Position numbers and translations under genes: made by a program. DNA of 64,000 nt, taken from NCBI RefSeq assembly GCF_045037415.1, contig NZ_CP173438.1. One strand, given 5' to 3'. The notes beneath the pieces are model-generated. The model saw nothing but the letters and a program-made list of their open reading frames with translations, ran no database searches and was not told the origin of the DNA. The stretch comes from Escherichia coli. Its GTDB lineage: Bacteria; Pseudomonadota; Gammaproteobacteria; Enterobacterales; Enterobacteriaceae. This document shows positions 57,665 to 63,265 of the stretch, in pieces. Every line of letters begins with the position of its first letter. The first letter of the stretch is position 1.

Positions 57665-58516
57665 TTATTTTACCGACCGATGCCCCTCATTCATCATCAG
57701 GATTTTGCTATACACATCTTCCTCGACGGCGTTTTTTGCTGATGCCATCACTCGTGCCAGATTCGCCTCGTTGTGATTATTCACATACGCTTTGCCGACT
57801 GCGGTGATAAACGCTTTGCGCAGATCGCTGGCGATATTCACTTTAGCGACGCGATAATTAACGAAACTGCGTAATATCTCCGGGGCGATACCGGAGCCGC
57901 CGTGGATAACCAGCGGCACCGGGCTGACTTCGGCAATGCGCTTCAGCAGGGGGATATCGATCCGCGGTATATCGTCCAGGCCATGAACGTTACCAATAGA
58001 AACTGCCAGCATGTCGCAACCGGTGCGTTCGACAAAGGTCTTCACCTTTTCCGGTTCCGTTTTGCAATCGGCCTCGCTGACGTGATCATCTTCTTTGCCG
58101 AGAATCGCCCCCAGCTCCGCTTCAACCGGCACGCCATAAGATTTACAGAAATCGACAGCTTCCTGGGTGAAAGCGATATTCTCTTCAAAAGAGAATGCGG
58201 CACCGTCAATCATGACCGAGGTAAAGCCCGCGCGCACCGCCTGTTTAACATCCTCCTGGGTTTTCCCGTGATCCAGATGAAGACTGACCGGAACATCCAT
58301 TTTATCGGCGTGACGTTTCACGATTTCATATATGTAATCGTATCCCGACAGTTGTGCATTGGTGGGCGCAATCTGAATGAAGTTGGGTAATCCCGAACGC
58401 TCAATAGCGTTTAAAATTGAAATTGTCGTCTCCAGATTGGTGGTATTAAACGCGCCCGCTAATACCCGTTTTTCCTGAATGCGGTCGAGCAGTATCCGTC
58501 CATTCACTAATGGCAT
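57665..58516 (-). CDS. class II ketose (bis)phosphate aldolase, GatY/KbaY/YdjI-like
   Basis: 283 aa ORF; class II aldolase signatures (SLHLDHG, VIHGGSG); last gene of the island operon. Confidence 0.8.
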   Translation of the reverse strand: MPLVNGRILLDRIQEKRVLAGAFNTTNLETTISILNAIERSGLPNFIQIAPTNAQLSGYDYIYEIVKRHADKMDVPVSLHLDHGKTQEDVKQAVRAGFTSVMIDGAAFSFEENIAFTQEAVDFCKSYGVPVEAELGAILGKEDDHVSEADCKTEPEKVKTFVERTGCDMLAVSIGNVHGLDDIPRIDIPLLKRIAEVSPVPLVIHGGSGIAPEILRSFVNYRVAKVNIASDLRKAFITAVGKAYVNNHNEANLARVMASAKNAVEEDVYSKILMMNEGHRSVK

Positions 58517-58547
58517 ATTGAAAACCTCATTTTTTAATATCAGTTAA

Positions 58548-58817
58548 TTATTCAGCTTCACCGAAGCGGTCGCGAAATAAGGCGGTGAGAGTCTGTATGG
58601 CCTCGTTTTCATCATCACCGTCGCAGCGTATTTCCACCGTTTTTCCGCCTTTTATTCCGGCGCGCATAATATTCATCATACTGGTGGCATTAATATCATT
58701 ACCCTCATAGTGCAGCGTCACTTTACAGCTACATTTTTTGGCGGCTTTCGCCAGACAGGCCGCCGGACGTGCATGCAGGCCAGTACTGTTTCTGACCTCC
58801 ACGGTTTTAGTCAACAT
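58548..58817 (-). CDS. HPr-family phosphocarrier protein
   Basis: 89 aa ORF; conserved His15 context (GLHARPA) and Ser46 region typical of HPr. Confidence 0.8.
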   Translation of the reverse strand: MLTKTVEVRNSTGLHARPAACLAKAAKKCSCKVTLHYEGNDINATSMMNIMRAGIKGGKTVEIRCDGDDENEAIQTLTALFRDRFGEAE

Positions 58818-60315
58818 AGTGCTCCTCCCGATGATGTAATGGCATCACGCCTTCTTGCTGTAATTTCAACTGATACCAGCTTTTCCATTTGTGCTGATAA
58901 CGCTGTAATTGATGATATCTTGCCCGATTCGGTAACAAACGTTGGGCTATGGTAACTTGCGGCGGCGGAATATCCGGTGCCGCGGTTAATAAGGCTCCGA
59001 CAGAAACCGCCTCGCTAAATGCAATTGCTTCAACCGGACGCTGTAAAATATCTGCCTTTAATTGCAGCCAAAGGGGGTTATGGGTCGCCGGACCGATCAC
59101 TTTTAACACGCTGGTGCCAGGCACATTAAAACAGGCAAAGCAGTTGGCAAATTCCATGGTTAATCCCAGTGAGACGCTGGAAATTAACATGTCGATATTT
59201 AACGTATCGCCAAGCCCATAAAATAATCCGCGGGTGTGGCGATTTTTATAGGGTGAACCCGAACCGCGAAGATGCGGAATAAAGACGGGAATGTCATCAA
59301 GCGACCAGTTCCCCGCCAGGTAATCCGCATACCCACGATTGAGCGACGCGGCGATCTCCTCATCAGTTAGCCGGAACGTGTTGCGCAGCCACTCCAGCGC
59401 GAAACCGCCCACGGGCAGAGAAGCAAACAGGGTGAACTGGTTGGCAAGCGAGTAACAGCCGTTTGCCAGCTTGTCACGTTTGGCCTGTTCATCCAGCGTC
59501 GGTTGTGTATCCAGTTGCAGAATGCCTTCCGTGGTGCCCGTCGAGTTAAGGATATCGCCCGGCATCATCTGCAACGCCCGCGCACCCACCATATGGTCAT
59601 GTCCGGCCAGCGTCACGCTGACCGGTTGCGAGAACCCAAGCGTTTTGCAGAGCGACTCGCTGACCCATCCGGCGTGTTCGCCTGGCTGCACCAATGGCGC
59701 AAATGCTGAACAGGGAACGTGTAACAACGCCGTCGCTTTCGCTGACCATTCGCCTTTGCGCACGTCCAGACACAGTGTACGGCTGGCTAAGGTGATATCC
59801 GTTCGCTGTTCGCCAGTCAGCCGCCAGAGCAGCACTTCCGGTGCATGTAGCCAGCGCAGGCCGCGACGATTGCGCAGCGGATAATGCTCCAGCAACCAAC
59901 GCATTTTGAAGGCAGAGTAATTGCTGTGCAGTGGTAATCCGCAAATGTCATAAAGTGCCGCACTGTCTGCCTCGCTAAGCGTTGCCAGATACTCTTCACC
60001 GCGACGGTCATACCATGCCAGCATTGGCGTCAGGATCTCGCCATGTTCGTCAAGAAACACCCCTGACTCGCCAAAACTGGCAATGCTGATCCGCCTGACA
60101 GGCAGCGGTGAAGCGGCGTTCAGTTGCGCTATCGCCTGGCGGACCTCCTGCCAGAGGGCGTCGATATCGAAATCGACATCGCCCTGTGGGGAGATCTGTT
60201 TTGCCGTCACGAATTTATGCGCGCCCAACGTCGTTGCGTCCAGGCAGGAAAAGCAGGTGACTTTGCAATTGGTGGTGCCAATATCGATAACGATAGCGGC
60301 GCTGTTATCAGGCAT
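58807..60315 (-). CDS. FGGY-family carbohydrate kinase
   Basis: 502 aa ORF; N-terminal actin-like ATPase motif (AIVIDIGTTNCKV), overall FGGY architecture. Confidence 0.8.
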   Translation of the reverse strand: MPDNSAAIVIDIGTTNCKVTCFSCLDATTLGAHKFVTAKQISPQGDVDFDIDALWQEVRQAIAQLNAASPLPVRRISIASFGESGVFLDEHGEILTPMLAWYDRRGEEYLATLSEADSAALYDICGLPLHSNYSAFKMRWLLEHYPLRNRRGLRWLHAPEVLLWRLTGEQRTDITLASRTLCLDVRKGEWSAKATALLHVPCSAFAPLVQPGEHAGWVSESLCKTLGFSQPVSVTLAGHDHMVGARALQMMPGDILNSTGTTEGILQLDTQPTLDEQAKRDKLANGCYSLANQFTLFASLPVGGFALEWLRNTFRLTDEEIAASLNRGYADYLAGNWSLDDIPVFIPHLRGSGSPYKNRHTRGLFYGLGDTLNIDMLISSVSLGLTMEFANCFACFNVPGTSVLKVIGPATHNPLWLQLKADILQRPVEAIAFSEAVSVGALLTAAPDIPPPQVTIAQRLLPNRARYHQLQRYQHKWKSWYQLKLQQEGVMPLHHREEHYVD

Positions 60316-61742: not shown

Positions 61743-62024
61743 TTACTTTTTTAGGATAGAAACAATTTGCGCCAATACTTTCTCTTCGCCAATACCAGTA
61801 ATAATTGGCAAGCCGTTAACCACCGGCACGTCGAGTTCATAAGGCACTTTAGTCGTTGAAACAACCAGTGCTACGCCGTCGGTATTTCCAGGTAAAGAGG
61901 CAACGTTGGTTTGAGAATAATTAACGTTAAGACCGTGCTCTTTACAATATTCCATGACTTTTTCTGTTACTGCCGTGGATGTGGCAATACCCGTGGCGCA
62001 GACAAATAAAATGGTTTGACTCAT
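61743..62024 (-). CDS. PTS EIIB, galactitol family
   Basis: 93 aa ORF with N-terminal active-site Cys motif (ILFVCATGIATS) typical of GatB-type EIIB. Confidence 0.8.
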   Translation of the reverse strand: MSQTILFVCATGIATSTAVTEKVMEYCKEHGLNVNYSQTNVASLPGNTDGVALVVSTTKVPYELDVPVVNGLPIITGIGEEKVLAQIVSILKK

Positions 62025-62494
62025 ATTTCACCTCGTTCTTTCATTTTGTTTAAGATTGCTGTGTGTATTTCTGTTGTTTCCATCGTAAGCAGGGCGCACA
62101 TAAAGGGCGTATCCTGAATCATCTCCATAATCCACCCCAGGGCATTTAATTGTTTGTTACTTTCGCCTAAGGCGAGCAAAAAAATCACCCTGACAGGTAC
62201 GGGATCAGGGTCGCCGCCCATATCGGCAAACACTACCGGTTCCGGCAGGATGCCGACGGCAATTGCATTGTGCCTGACATGTTTATGGTCCGTGTGCGGA
62301 ATGGCGACACACGGTGGTTCGGTAGGCAGTCCCGTTGGGTACGTCGCCTCACGTTCCAGTACATGATCGGCAAAATCAGGGACCACCAGTTCGGCGGTAA
62401 CCAACGGTTGCGCTAACTGACGGATGATCTGTTCAACGCTTAACCCTGCCGGAAGTCGTTGAATAAAATTTTCCTGAAACTGTATGCCTTGCAT
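62021..62494 (-). CDS. PTS EIIA, type-2 (mannitol/fructose/galactitol class)
   Basis: 157 aa ORF with AIPH active-site His motif; 4-bp overlap with EIIB start. Confidence 0.8.
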   Translation of the reverse strand: MQGIQFQENFIQRLPAGLSVEQIIRQLAQPLVTAELVVPDFADHVLEREATYPTGLPTEPPCVAIPHTDHKHVRHNAIAVGILPEPVVFADMGGDPDPVPVRVIFLLALGESNKQLNALGWIMEMIQDTPFMCALLTMETTEIHTAILNKMKERGEI

Positions 62495-62518
62495 TTTATT
62501 CCTCTTAAAAAAGTGTAC

Positions 62519-63265
62519 TTAACTCACTTCCCGCCGTTGCAGCACGGTGCCAAGATAGTATTTATTTCCTTTTAACCAGACGTTGCCAAACTCAACGGGT
62601 AATCCGCGGGAGAAAAAGACTAACTGCTCCAGATGCAAAACGGGTGCATCTTCACTGATATCTAAAAAATGACCGCGTTCATTACCAATTAATCGCGCGG
62701 CATAGCGACTTTCCGAGTAACGAATTTTTCTTTGCGACAAACTTTCTATTGTTGGAAATAAATTGTGTTGATTAAAATCGATTTCCACGATGCCGGGGCA
62801 TAGCTCAATATTGATACGGTTCTCTATCAGCATCGCTTTTTCATCACCAATTGAACGTAAACGCTCAAGGTAAAGAATATCCTGACCGGGCGTTATTCTT
62901 AATTTCTCTGCCACATAACGATTAGCCGGTTCAATCCGTGACGTAATAACTTCAGTGGTAAAATGTATTTTCTGGCTTTCCAGCGATTCCGCGAATGACA
63001 ATAATCCTTCACCTAACGGATATGCCACGTTCTCTTTTTTGACAAATGTTCCCTTCCCCTGAACCTGAATCAACACGCCTTCTTTTACCAGTTGGGCGAC
63101 CGCTTTTTTAACGGTTCCCCGACTCACTTCCAGCATATCCATAATCTGGTATTCCGAAGGAATGCGATCGTCTTCCACCAGATCCCCGGTATAAATACTT
63201 TCTCTTATCCACTCCACCACTTGTTGATAGAGCGGTATTTGTGACGACTTACTCAATGATTTCAT
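62519..63265 (-). CDS. GntR-family regulator, HutC subfamily (wHTH plus UTRA effector domain)
   Basis: ORF 62519..63274 trimmed to in-frame ATG (MKSLSKSSQIPLYQQ) with AGGTG upstream; N-terminal GntR HTH (SEYQIMDMLEVSRGTVKKAVAQLVKEGVL). Confidence 0.8.
   Translation of the reverse strand: MKSLSKSSQIPLYQQVVEWIRESIYTGDLVEDDRIPSEYQIMDMLEVSRGTVKKAVAQLVKEGVLIQVQGKGTFVKKENVAYPLGEGLLSFAESLESQKIHFTTEVITSRIEPANRYVAEKLRITPGQDILYLERLRSIGDEKAMLIENRINIELCPGIVEIDFNQHNLFPTIESLSQRKIRYSESRYAARLIGNERGHFLDISEDAPVLHLEQLVFFSRGLPVEFGNVWLKGNKYYLGTVLQRREVS

What the first reader, a model, noticed from the sequence alone, without database searches (positions are those of the whole stretch)
57665..63265. Seven-gene GntR-regulated PTS / FGGY-kinase / HPr / class II aldolase operon where K-12 has rhsB
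Between the conserved yhhJ and nikR genes lies a compact, same-strand, partly overlapping operon: GntR/HutC regulator, Gat-family PTS EIIA, EIIB and EIIC, an FGGY kinase, an HPr-like phosphocarrier and a class II aldolase. From memory, K-12 carries the rhsB element and yhhH/yhhI at this position, so this is a strain-variable accessory island. A PTS (which already phosphorylates its substrate) combined with an ATP-dependent FGGY kinase and an aldolase is not the canonical galactitol/tagatose route, which uses PfkB-type kinases. One reading is: PTS delivers a ketose-1-phosphate, the aldolase cleaves it to DHAP plus an unphosphorylated aldehyde, and the kinase rescues that aldehyde. The substrate cannot be inferred from sequence.
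Basis: partly seen in the sequence, partly recalled or inferred. Interest (0 to 1): 0.7.

Follow-up and report, generated by a model that had tools for sequence, protein, structure and literature searches.

The report
Uncharacterised ketose PTS–kinase–aldolase operon
This is a real, intact seven-gene sugar-uptake and breakdown operon, found in about 30% of E. coli and in Salmonella, whose sugar is still unknown and which probably uses an unusual type of kinase to add a second phosphate before an aldolase splits the sugar.

Summary
Seven intact minus-strand genes (57665-63265) encode a GntR/HutC regulator, Gat-type PTS EIIA/EIIB/EIIC, an FGGY kinase, an HPr paralogue and a class II aldolase, lying between yhhJ and nikR. 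K-12 has rhsB-yhhH-yrhC-yhhI at that site.

The operon is in 1635 of 5426 complete E. coli genomes, including ST131, Nissle, O157:H7 (Z4874-Z4880) and the type strain. It sits at the same site in E. whittamii and Citrobacter amalonaticus. It is orthologous to Salmonella STM3779-STM3785, which papers from 2013 and 2024 still call an unknown-sugar system.

All seven genes are under strong purifying selection (dN/dS 0.00-0.11), and all checked catalytic residues are present.

Across 80 loci from other species, the kinase always travels with this aldolase family. The pair is joined to a Gat-type PTS, to a PTS plus a Zn-dehydrogenase, or, in Actinobacteria, to an ABC transporter plus a second xylulokinase-like kinase.

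The best reading is PTS makes ketose-phosphate, the FGGY kinase makes a bisphosphate, and the aldolase yields DHAP plus an aldose-phosphate. A CRP-like site and a GntR operator appear to control it.

Published phenotypes argue against D-tagatose and D-psicose. The substrate stays unknown. Interest is moderate.

The parts
62519..63265 (-). GntR/HutC-type transcriptional regulator (248 aa), first gene of the operon
   Evidence: Full-length matches to HutC-subfamily models (LSA1692, PhnF, TreR, HutC), all below their equivalog cut-offs. The Salmonella orthologue has Pfam GntR+UTRA. RefSeq names it a GntR family regulator.
62021..62494 (-). PTS EIIA (PTS_EIIA_2 type, 157 aa)
   Evidence: Weak matches to GatA and FruA-IIA models. 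The 'AIPH' histidine aligns with GatA His62; identity to GatA is only 20%.
61743..62024 (-). PTS EIIB (93 aa)
   Evidence: GatB model 60 bits, below the 95-bit cut-off. Cys10 aligns with GatB Cys9; identity is 36%.
60308..61666 (-). PTS EIIC of the Gat family (452 aa)
   Evidence: TIGR00827 EIIC-GAT 474 bits, E 3.5e-142, below the galactitol-specific cut-off of 542. It is 69% identical to the EIIC of the matching Firmicute operons but only 56% to the dehydrogenase-containing type.
58807..60315 (-). FGGY-family carbohydrate kinase (502 aa); its start overlaps the EIIC stop by 8 nt
   Evidence: No NCBIfam equivalog reached: XylB 145/380, GlpK 129/590, FucK 121/471 bits. Carries Pfam FGGY_N+FGGY_C. 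ATP motifs DIGTTN and STGTTEG and catalytic Asp240 in 'GHDHM' are conserved.
58548..58817 (-). HPr-family phosphocarrier paralogue (89 aa)
   Evidence: TIGR01003 101 bits, above the 47.9 cut-off. His15 and Arg17 lie in 'GLHARPA'. Present only in the enterobacterial versions of the operon.
57665..58516 (-). Class II (Zn) ketose-phosphate aldolase of the PRK07998/NF005943 family (283 aa)
   Evidence: NF005943 556 bits, above the 364 cut-off. FBP- and TBP-aldolase equivalogs are all below their cut-offs. Asp82, His83, His178, His205, Glu132/134/142, Lys225 and Asn227 are conserved.
63287..63368 (-). Predicted promoter and operator. CRP-like site at 63347-63368 (TGTGA-N6-TCGAT). -10 hexamer TACTAT at 63323-63328. 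GntR/HutC-type operator AGTTGTCCATGATTGTCCATAGACAACT at 63287-63314, with an inner 14-bp palindrome at 63289-63302.
   Evidence: Sequence. The palindrome was found in 19 of the 20 upstream regions examined (window plus 19 loci); the K. oxytoca locus L019 was extracted from a mis-set ORF start. TGTGA lies 62-63 nt upstream of the palindrome in 17 of the 20; L017 and L018 have CGTGA at that position. No experiment supports this.
57626..57658 (.). REP element just after the aldolase stop codon; the K-12 homology break (57643) lies inside it
   Evidence: Sequence; BLAST break; sub-threshold naRNA4 (REP-derived) Rfam match.
57564..57587 (-). GC-rich hairpin between the convergent yhhJ and aldolase genes; candidate terminator
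   Evidence: Consensus scan only; 8-bp stem with a weak T tract.

Best explanation
This is an intact, selected catabolic operon for a still unidentified ketose-type carbohydrate, probably a hexulose or heptulose.

Proposed steps (all inferred; none assayed):
1. EI passes phosphate through the operon's own HPr paralogue to EIIA (His66) and EIIB (Cys10).
2. The Gat-type EIIC imports the sugar, phosphorylated on a terminal hydroxyl.
3. The FGGY kinase, translationally coupled to EIIC, adds a second phosphate with ATP, most likely at C1 next to the keto group.
4. The Zn-dependent class II aldolase cleaves the bisphosphate to DHAP plus an aldose phosphate (glyceraldehyde-3-P from a hexulose, erythrose-4-P from a heptulose).

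Proposed regulation (inferred):
- Transcription starts at one promoter upstream of the regulator gene.
- CRP would activate it from a site centred about -41.5.
- The GntR/HutC protein would repress it at a palindromic operator over the start site, presumably until a phosphorylated intermediate binds.
For: Shown here:
- All seven genes are intact and the families are confirmed.
- The phosphorylation-site His, Cys and His residues are present.
- The aldolase metal ligands and acid/base residues are conserved.
- The kinase ATP motifs and catalytic Asp are conserved.
- dN/dS against E. whittamii is 0.00-0.11 for every gene.
- The operon is in 1635 of 5426 complete E. coli genomes, always on the chromosome.
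- Z4875-Z4877 and Z4879 are induced in bovine gut contents relative to M9-glucose (PMC6199705).

Support for the order of steps (inferred):
- In 78 of 80 loci found through the kinase, a PRK07998-type aldolase is adjacent. The other two loci are cut by contig ends.
- No isomerase, epimerase or hydrolase recurs next to the module.
- The 16 loci that lack PTS genes, all from Actinobacteria, have a ribose-type ABC transporter, and 15 of them add a second FGGY kinase. The one examined scores 321 bits on the XylB model, which would supply the first phosphorylation.
- 22 loci add a Zn alcohol dehydrogenase, as expected if a polyol-phosphate is fed into the same kinase-aldolase pair.
- The aldolase family keeps 'DLR' Arg233 in all 14 family members aligned. 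This is the counterpart of H. pylori FBP aldolase Arg259, which binds the 6-phosphate (PMC10665668; mapped through). YdjI, which cleaves a 1-monophosphate, has Cys at that position.
- Relative to GlpK, the kinase replaces Arg83, Tyr135 and Phe270 with Gly, Asn and Gly. It shares the His-Asp catalytic motif with FucK and RhaB, which phosphorylate C1 of 2-ketoses.

Support for regulation:
- The CRP half-site, the -10 hexamer and the palindrome keep fixed spacing in nearly all of the 20 upstream regions examined: the palindrome was found in 19, and TGTGA lies 62-63 nt upstream of it in 17.
Against: - No enzyme activity, inducer or growth phenotype is known for any member.
- No FGGY kinase is known to act on a sugar phosphate. 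The nine specificities listed in PMC3245297 are all unphosphorylated substrates.
- The second 6-phosphate-binding Arg of FBP/TBP aldolases ('DPR', KbaY Arg257) is Ala257 here. The basic residue next to it is not conserved across the family: R, K, S or N.
- Two kinases in the ABC-type loci would also fit the aldolase-first model.
- In the Enterococcus avium group, a second aldolase of this family sits with a Man-type PTS and a Zn-dehydrogenase but no kinase of its own.
- The Salmonella island has been reported as H-NS-repressed (PMC3604774), so it may be silent in the laboratory.
Confidence: 0.55

Rival explanations
1. The PTS delivers a ketose-1-phosphate. The aldolase cleaves it directly to DHAP plus an unphosphorylated aldehyde. 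The FGGY kinase (with the Zn-dehydrogenase in the variant clusters) then salvages that aldehyde or its alcohol, as in liver fructose metabolism.
For: - PF01116 enzymes that cleave 1-monophosphates exist: YdjI in K-12 and the sulfofructose-1-phosphate aldolases.
- The partner-protomer Arg of FBP/TBP aldolases is missing, as it is in SqiA.
- The best solved-structure matches of the kinase are glycerol kinases.
- An Enterococcus cluster has aldolase + PTS + Zn-dehydrogenase without a kinase.
- The two-kinase ABC loci fit this order as well.
Against: - The known monophosphate substrates of PF01116 enzymes still carry a distal anion.
- The family keeps the distal-phosphate Arg233, which YdjI has lost.
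- The kinase lacks GlpK's triose-packing residues Arg83, Tyr135 and Phe270 and looks like a large-sugar kinase with the FucK/RhaB His-Asp motif.
- FGGY kinases are not known to phosphorylate aldoses.
- These hosts already have GlpK, so an invariably linked dedicated triose kinase is hard to explain.
- The kinase is translationally coupled to EIIC in almost every PTS version.
Confidence: 0.2
2. It is simply a second galactitol or D-tagatose PTS pathway, as the database names suggest ('PTS galactitol transporter subunit IIC', 'gatY-like aldolase').
For: - The EIIC belongs to the Gat family (474 bits on TIGR00827).
- GatA and GatB are the best-matching models for EIIA and EIIB.
- PMC6199705 calls Z4875-Z4877 a galactitol transporter.
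Against: - There is no GatD-type dehydrogenase, no GatZ and no DeoR-type GatR.
- All Gat equivalog scores are below their cut-offs.
- Identity to GatA is 20% and to GatB 36%.
- E. coli Nissle carries this operon but loses all growth on, and consumption of, D-tagatose when a different ABC-type cluster is deleted (PMC9720028).
- The E. coli type strain has the intact operon yet is dulcitol-negative (PMC4334874).
Confidence: 0.07
3. It is a silenced relic with no present function in E. coli, kept only by linkage.
For: - The Salmonella orthologous island is reported as H-NS-repressed (PMC3604774).
- No Biolog phenotype tracks with it.
- A few genomes carry IS1 insertions in it.
Against: - dN/dS is 0.00-0.11 for all seven genes.
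- No pseudogene flags appear in the genomes inspected.
- The promoter and operator are conserved across genera.
- Transcripts are induced in bovine gut contents and in chicken caecal communities for STM3780-85 (PMC11000858).
Confidence: 0.05

Closest known systems
Salmonella enterica STM3779-STM3785 and E. coli O157:H7 EDL933 Z4874-Z4880
   Same: These are orthologues with the same seven gene families. The Salmonella kinase is 63% identical and the aldolase 89%. The O157 segment is 96.5% identical in DNA.
   Different: In Salmonella the island lies next to uhp rather than nikR, and the aldolase and HPr genes are in swapped order. Neither has an assigned substrate: 'unknown carbohydrate' (PMC3604774) and 'unknown sugars' (PMC11000858).
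PTS routes for D-fructose (FruBKA + FbaA) and D-tagatose (TagTH-TagK-GatYZ of Klebsiella and Salmonella)
   Same: Same logic: the PTS makes a ketose monophosphate, an ATP kinase makes the 1,6-bisphosphate, and a class II aldolase gives two triose phosphates. Some also encode a dedicated HPr-like domain (PMC9720028; the rest is established knowledge).
   Different: Those kinases are PfkB-type FruK paralogues, whereas this one is FGGY. Their PTS is of the Fru family, whereas this is Gat-type. GatY needs GatZ, and no GatZ is present here. The aldolase is a separate family (NF005943).
E. coli galactitol operon gatYZABCD
   Same: It has a Gat-family EIIA/EIIB/EIIC and a PF01116 aldolase.
   Different: The gat route needs the GatD dehydrogenase, GatZ and host PfkA as the tagatose-6-P kinase. 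Here there is no dehydrogenase or GatZ, and the operon brings its own kinase. Identity to GatA is 20% and to GatB 36%.
E. coli Nissle / B2 ABC-type D-tagatose cluster (ECOLIN_RS18670-18695)
   Same: It is an accessory sugar cluster of B2 strains that ends in a class II ketose-bisphosphate aldolase. It resembles the actinobacterial ABC-type relatives found here.
   Different: It is at a different locus (accC-yhdT). It uses an ABC transporter, a roughly 320-aa sugar kinase plus PfkA, and a GatY-like aldolase. It alone accounts for D-tagatose growth.
YdjH/YdjI of E. coli K-12 (octuluronate kinase and 1-phosphate aldolase) and SqiA sulfofructose-1-phosphate aldolases
   Same: They are PF01116 aldolases recruited to unusual ketose phosphates and paired with a dedicated kinase.
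   Different: Their substrates are 1-monophosphates with a distal carboxylate or sulfonate. YdjI lacks both distal-phosphate arginines, and this family keeps one. Their kinases are PfkB or PFK type.

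Membership tests
PTS Gat family (EIIC-GAT, TC 4.A.5) | EIIC with the EIIC-GAT domain, plus separate EIIA (PTS_EIIA_2) and EIIB (PTS_IIB) proteins | tested here: met
   TIGR00827 474 bits, E 3.5e-142. Orthologues carry PF03611, PF00359 and PF02302.
PTS Gat family (EIIC-GAT, TC 4.A.5) | Phosphorylatable His in EIIA and Cys in EIIB | tested here: met
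   His66 aligns with GatA His62, and Cys10 aligns with GatB Cys9.
Galactitol-specific PTS / gat operon | Scores above the curated galactitol equivalog cut-offs | tested here: not met
   EIIC 474 vs 542, EIIA 55.5 vs 139, EIIB 60 vs 95 bits.
Galactitol-specific PTS / gat operon | Galactitol-1-phosphate dehydrogenase GatD and GatZ in the cluster | tested here: not met
   Only seven genes lie between yhhJ and nikR, and none is a dehydrogenase or GatZ.
D-tagatose PTS pathway (tagKTH) | PfkB-type tagatose-1-phosphate kinase, and growth on D-tagatose that depends on the cluster | tested here: not met
   The kinase is FGGY. Nissle with this operon intact but its ABC tag cluster deleted does not grow on or consume D-tagatose.
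FGGY carbohydrate kinase family | [quoted passage not shown] | tested here: met
   PF00370+PF02782. D11, G13, T14 and T15, S258-G260-T261, D240 and G408 are conserved against GlpK, XylB, FucK and RhaB.
Known FGGY isofunctional groups (XylB, GlpK, FucK, RhaB, GntK, AraB, LsrK) | Score above the curated equivalog cut-off | tested here: not met
   The best match is XylB at 145 bits vs a 380 cut-off; all others score lower. Identity to the K-12 enzymes is 19-22%.
Class II (metal-dependent) ketose-phosphate aldolases, PF01116 | Zn ligands (3 His), Asp-His dyad and the mobile-loop Glu | tested here: met
   His83, His178, His205, Asp82 and Glu142 are invariant or nearly so in alignment A2.
NCBIfam NF005943 (PRK07998) 'class II aldolase' | Score above the curated cut-off | tested here: met
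   555.9 bits vs a 364 cut-off.
FBP aldolase / TBP aldolase (FbaA, GatY, KbaY) | Equivalog score, and both distal 6-phosphate arginines | tested here: not met
   All FBA, GatY and KbaY models score below their cut-offs. The 'DLR' Arg233 is kept, but the 'DPR' Arg is replaced by Ala257.
FBP aldolase / TBP aldolase (FbaA, GatY, KbaY) | Cleavage of a ketose 1,6-bisphosphate | not testable with these tools
   Needs an enzyme assay.
GntR family, HutC subfamily | N-terminal winged helix-turn-helix plus a C-terminal UTRA effector domain | tested here: met
   Full-length alignments to HutC-subfamily models (residues 15-247). The orthologue carries PF00392+PF07702.
HPr family (TIGR01003) | Score above the cut-off, and an active-site His15 | tested here: met
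   100.9 bits vs a 47.9 cut-off. His15 and Arg17 are present.

The most novel reading that the evidence does not exclude
The FGGY enzyme would be the first sugar-phosphate kinase of its family: a ketose-omega-phosphate 1-kinase. Together with a GatZ-independent class II aldolase it would form a portable two-enzyme module. That module is plugged into a Gat-type PTS, a PTS plus polyol-phosphate dehydrogenase, or an ABC transporter plus a first kinase. It would define a new catabolic route for a rare ketose or heptulose and its polyol. The candidates not excluded have the 3S configuration that PF01116 aldolases make, for example mannoheptulose/perseitol. The route would be used by about 30% of E. 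coli strains, by Salmonella enterica subspecies I, and by many plant- and gut-associated bacteria.
Probability: 0.4. Interest if true: 0.6.

Novelty: new variant of a known kind. Interest (0 to 1): 0.45.

Why it matters
- **Unassigned gene set in major pathogens.** The operon is one of the conserved carbohydrate gene sets that separate ST131, other B2 strains, O157:H7 and Salmonella subspecies I from K-12. It still has no substrate.
- **Expression in the gut.** It is switched on in bovine gut contents (PMC6199705) and in chicken caecal communities permissive for Salmonella (PMC11000858). Its sugar may therefore be a niche-defining nutrient.
- **Enzyme-family consequences.** If the kinase really acts on a sugar phosphate, the known chemistry of the FGGY family widens. 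A family of hundreds of 'carbohydrate kinase' and 'class II aldolase' annotations across four phyla would gain a function.
- **Practical route forward.** The comparative map made here gives three architectures around one kinase-aldolase pair. That turns substrate discovery into a small, well-defined enzyme and induction screen.

Tried and rejected
- **D-tagatose as substrate: rejected.** Nissle carries the operon at 97.3% identity. Its ABC tag-cluster deletion neither grows on nor consumes D-tagatose (PMC9720028).
- **D-psicose (D-allulose): attractive, but not supported.** Nissle grows on it and K-12 does not (PMC7924626; PMC12216980). However, the E. coli type strain DSM 30083 has an intact operon and is D-psicose-negative (PMC4334874).
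- **L-sorbose: not needed.** Its use in Nissle is attributed to the sor operon.
- **Galactitol: rejected.** There is no dehydrogenase, and the type strain is dulcitol-negative.
- **Literature by identifier.** Searches by RefSeq protein accession found nothing. Searches by Z- and STM-numbers found only expression lists and 'unknown sugar' statements.
- **Plasmid carriage.** The only two 'plasmid' hits are records of 4.9 Mb, which by their size look like chromosomes.
- **Rfam scan of the region.** Only a sub-threshold REP-derived hit.
- **The EIIB-EIIC spacer hairpin.** Not significant, z = -1.7.
- **Generic sigma-70 scan.** It missed the promoter, because the promoter has no -35 element.
- **Kinase divergence as an argument for step order: dropped.** The kinases are 35% identical against 80% identical aldolases, but the kinase evolves fast in every comparison.
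- **The SFP-aldolase and FGGY family papers.** Neither mentions this family or its gene context.

Full report
**1. What is there**

Listing ORFs between 54000 and 64000 gives seven minus-strand ORFs from 63265 down to 57665. They lie between yhhJ (plus strand, ends 57556) and nikR (minus strand, 63464-63865). NCBIfam assigns them as follows:
- a GntR/HutC-type regulator;
- a PTS_EIIA_2-type EIIA;
- a GatB-like EIIB;
- an EIIC of the Gat family (TIGR00827, 474 bits, below the galactitol-specific cut-off of 542);
- an FGGY kinase that reaches no equivalog cut-off (best XylB, 145 vs 380 bits);
- an HPr-family protein (101 vs 47.9 bits);
- a class II aldolase that passes only the model NF005943/PRK07998, 'class II aldolase' (556 vs 364 bits).

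RefSeq annotates the same seven genes, with no pseudogene flags, in genomes 100% identical over the region. The RefSeq starts shorten two mechanical ORFs: the regulator starts at the ATG at 63265, behind an AGGTG, and EIIC starts at 61666.

Three gene pairs overlap: EIIA/EIIB by 4 nt, EIIC/kinase by 8 nt and kinase/HPr by 11 nt.

**2. Boundaries and population distribution**

BLAST of the window against the K-12 region shows homology ending at 57643, 87 nt past the yhhJ stop and inside a REP element. Homology resumes at 63466, the nikR stop codon. K-12 has rhsB, yhhH, yrhC and yhhI in the gap.

The 5.75-kb segment is present at 80% coverage or more in 1635 of 5426 complete E. coli genomes, always on the chromosome. 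Carriers include:
- O25b:H4-ST131, at 100% identity;
- APEC O2:K1;
- Nissle 1917 (97.3%; annotation);
- O157:H7 (96.5%);
- the species type strain DSM 30083.

The nikR-operon-yhhJ arrangement also occurs in Escherichia whittamii and in Citrobacter amalonaticus, where the kinase is 80% identical. The segment therefore looks ancestral at this site and lost or replaced in K-12-like lineages.

dN/dS against E. whittamii, where dS is 0.17-0.32 and so not saturated, is 0.00-0.11 for each of the seven genes. The operon is under purifying selection.

**3. What is already known**

The genes are EDL933 Z4874-Z4880. Z4875, Z4876, Z4877 and Z4879 are named as EIIA, EIIB, EIIC and HPr in PMC6199705, where they are up-regulated 4- to 14-fold in bovine rumen, small-intestine and rectum contents relative to M9-glucose. 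Z4874 is listed as RpoS-dependent in stationary phase (PMC2907692).

The Salmonella orthologue lies next to uhp and has the same seven families, with aldolase and HPr in swapped order. It is STM3779-STM3785. Published statements about it:
- 'unknown sugars', expressed in a permissive chicken caecal community (PMC11000858);
- STM3784 is ArcA-activated (PMC3075218).

No paper in the searchable library assigns a substrate.

**4. Comparative anatomy**

A protein search with the kinase found two groups. Relatives at 60-80% identity occur across Enterobacterales. A second tier at 33-40% occurs in Firmicutes, Negativicutes, Coriobacteriia and Actinobacteria.

Gene contexts were taken and from a genome-collection scan that returned 80 loci. 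I mapped those loci with phmmer using the seven window proteins. The kinase is next to a PRK07998-type aldolase in 78 of 80 loci. The other two are truncated by contig ends.

Three architectures appear:

| Type | Composition | Loci | Taxa |
|---|---|---|---|
| (i) | regulator, EIIA, EIIB, EIIC, kinase, aldolase, no other enzyme | 41 | Escherichia, Citrobacter, Klebsiella oxytoca, Cedecea, Rahnella, Enterococcus, Pectinatus, Selenomonas, Lacticaseibacillus, Pediococcus (Salmonella and Listeria immobilis have the same layout) |
| (ii) | type (i) plus a 343-344-aa Zn alcohol dehydrogenase of the Tdh/GatD superfamily | 22 | Pantoea, Raoultella, Erwinia, Serratia, Gilliamella, Bacillus, Staphylococcus, Paenibacillus |
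| (iii) | no PTS; the two loci examined carry an RbsB-like ABC transporter; 15 add a second FGGY kinase (321 bits on XylB in the one scored) | 16 | Actinobacteria |

The remaining locus (L016) is a 1.3-kb contig that holds only part of the kinase gene.

Clustering all other neighbours found no recurrent isomerase, epimerase or glycosidase.

Identity comparisons:
- The window EIIC is 69% identical to Firmicute type (i) EIICs but 56% to enterobacterial type (ii) EIICs.
- The aldolase is 80% identical between enterobacterial types (i) and (ii).
- The kinase evolves fast everywhere, at about 35% identity between groups.

The HPr paralogue is present in all the enterobacterial clusters except the two Gilliamella loci. 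A weaker HPr match also appears in four Bacillus/Paenibacillus-type loci. In Firmicutes an Mga/PRD-type regulator is found in 15 loci and, in some (for example Pectinatus), stands in place of the GntR regulator.

**5. Are the enzymes competent?**

Aldolase:
- Asp82, His83, His178, His205, Glu132, Glu134, Glu142, Lys225 and Asn227 are invariant or nearly so.
- The alignment covers 14 family members plus GatY, KbaY and YdjI.

Kinase:
- The phosphate-1 motif DIGTTN, the STGTTEG motif, the catalytic Asp240 and the adenosine-motif Gly408 are all conserved.
- These were checked against K-12 GlpK, XylB, FucK and RhaB.

PTS proteins:
- EIIA His66, EIIB Cys10 and HPr His15 are all present.

**6. Which order of reactions?**

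Two models fit a PTS, a kinase and an aldolase.
- Model A: PTS product, then kinase makes a bisphosphate, then aldolase.

Evidence bearing on the choice:

(a) In class II FBP aldolases the 6-phosphate is held by Ser49, Arg259 and, from the partner subunit, Arg280 (H. pylori numbering; PMC10665668). Using the Thermus alignment, where the two arginines lie in 'DLR' and 'DPR' 21 residues apart, Arg259 maps to Arg233. Arg233 is present in all 14 members of this family aligned. It is Lys in GatY and KbaY and Cys in YdjI, which cleaves a 1-monophosphate. Arg280 maps to Ala257, followed by Arg258 in enterics and actinobacteria, Lys in Enterococcus, and Ser or Asn elsewhere. So a distal anion site is half retained.

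(b) Against GlpK, the kinase keeps Glu84 and Trp103 but replaces Arg83, Tyr135 and Phe270, which pack around glycerol (my knowledge of the GlpK structure). The replacements are Gly82, Asn132 and Gly264. This is a large-substrate pocket, not a triose pocket.

(c) Its catalytic motif 'GHDHM' shares the His-Asp pair with FucK ('GHDTQ') and RhaB ('SHDTA'), which phosphorylate C1 of 2-ketoses. GlpK, XylB and the actinobacterial second kinase have Gly-Asp and phosphorylate the distal end (regiochemistry from established knowledge).

(d) The known Gat PTS phosphorylates the end that becomes C6 of tagatose-6-P (PMC9720028). In type (iii) loci a XylB-like kinase can supply that same distal phosphate. 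That leaves the conserved kinase as the C1 kinase in all three architectures.

(e) No FGGY kinase is known to use an aldose, and these hosts already have GlpK.

Against Model A:
- No FGGY kinase is known to accept a sugar phosphate; all nine listed specificities are unphosphorylated (PMC3245297).
- The missing 'DPR' arginine resembles the sulfofructose-1-phosphate aldolases.
- In Enterococcus raffinosus, malodoratus and avium, a second aldolase of the family sits with a Man-type PTS and a Zn-dehydrogenase but no kinase, directly after the type (i) operon.

I put Model A at about 0.55 and Model B at about 0.2.

**7. Regulation**

The 198-nt spacer after nikR has three elements in fixed register:
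- a CRP-like half-palindrome, AAAATGTGA-N6-TCGATC (63347-63368);
- a -10 hexamer, TACTAT (63323-63328), with no -35;
- the sequence AGTTGTCCATGATTGTCCATAGACAACT (63287-63314).

The core of the last element, TTGTCCATAGACAA, is one mismatch from a perfect 14-bp palindrome.

I examined 20 upstream regions: the window plus 19 enterobacterial type (i) loci.
- The palindrome was found in 19. It is perfect (TTGTCTATAGACAA) in Salmonella and five other loci. It was missed in the K. oxytoca locus L019 because that region was extracted from a mis-set ORF start.
- TGTGA lies 62-63 nt upstream of the palindrome in 17. Two further loci (L017, L018) have CGTGA at that position.

Firmicute operons carry repeated TTGTACA motifs in the same place. 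With a start about 7 nt after the -10, the CRP site centres near -41.5 and the operator covers +2 to +29. This fits a CRP-activated, GntR-autorepressed single promoter. It also fits the induction seen when glucose is absent. This is sequence inference only.

**8. Substrate**

- D-tagatose is unlikely. Nissle loses all growth and consumption when an unrelated ABC-type cluster is deleted (PMC9720028).
- D-psicose separates Nissle from K-12 (PMC7924626). But the type strain, which has an intact operon, is D-psicose-negative and dulcitol-negative (PMC4334874).
- L-sorbose use is attributed to the sor operon.

Because PF01116 aldolases make the 3S configuration (established knowledge), the remaining candidates are fructose- or tagatose-configured ketoses that are absent from Biolog PM1 and PM2. 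Examples are heptuloses such as mannoheptulose, with the corresponding polyols for the type (ii) clusters. This is speculation. The substrate is unknown.

**9. Verdict**

The finding is real and correctly described. The operon is a known 'unknown-sugar' island rather than a new discovery.

The comparative result is new as far as the searchable literature shows. It consists of a conserved FGGY-kinase and PRK07998-aldolase pair served by three kinds of uptake and first-phosphorylation system, plus a conserved CRP/GntR promoter design. Together these make the function directly testable.

I rate it a new variant of a known kind, with interest 0.45.

Noticed in passing
window 1-50000 (e.g. 27157-36109 and 38601-39026): The first 50 kb of the window is 100% identical to E. 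coli 4/1-1 NZ_CP023844.1. By that record's annotation it holds another strain-variable block, the chu/shu haem-uptake cluster (about 27157-36109). It also holds the gad/hde/mdtEF acid-resistance region and an arsC gene (38601-39026) with no annotated arsR or arsB beside it.
   Followed up: partly
window 57626-57658: A REP element sits directly after the aldolase stop codon, and the break in K-12 homology (57643) falls inside it. There is a weak, sub-threshold Rfam match to the REP-derived naRNA4 (31.6 vs 59.5 bits). REP-mediated recombination may have been involved in the rhsB/operon replacement.
   Followed up: partly
window 52000-52500: GC content drops sharply to 0.33 in the yhiM-yhiY spacer, against about 0.5 for the window.
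   Followed up: no
window 61667-61742: The 76-nt EIIB-EIIC spacer contains a 31-nt GC-rich stem-loop just before the EIIC ribosome-binding site. Its folding energy is not significant (z = -1.7).
   Followed up: partly
window 57665-63265: Base composition is uneven within the operon. The regulator and EIIB genes are at 0.42-0.43 GC, the kinase at 0.54, and the others near 0.50.
   Followed up: no
NZ_CM190149.1 and NZ_CP095088.1 (hits H1/H21 and H57): In two complete genomes the operon match is split into two pieces, with an IS1-family transposase annotated under it. These are occasional insertional disruptions.
   Followed up: no
L035 9896-16616 (also L036, L037): In Enterococcus raffinosus, malodoratus and avium, the type (i) operon is followed by a second cluster. 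It holds a second PRK07998-family aldolase (427 bits), an Mga/PRD regulator, a Man-family EIIA/B/C/D and a Zn alcohol dehydrogenase. It has no kinase of its own.
   Followed up: partly
L042 12681-13469 (and 7 other Pantoea/Erwinia-type loci): A SurE-type 5'/3'-nucleotidase gene (286 bits, above its cut-off) follows the HPr gene in the dehydrogenase-containing clusters. It could be a sugar-phosphate phosphatase acting as a safety valve.
   Followed up: no
L093 29142-33451 (E. coli DSM 30083, outside the window): Between rpoH and livJ the type strain carries another accessory cluster. It consists of a DapA-like protein, a phosphoglycerate-dehydrogenase-like protein and a Man-family PTS EIIA/B/C/D.
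   Followed up: no
L019 upstream region (Klebsiella oxytoca); loci with a second TGTGA 108-109 nt upstream of the palindrome: Eleven type (i) enterobacterial loci have a second TGTGA 46 nt further upstream (89 nt upstream in Salmonella L004). K. oxytoca shows a near-perfect CRP palindrome, TGTGATGTTCATCACA, in the extracted upstream stretch. The E. coli window lacks this second exact half-site.
   Followed up: no
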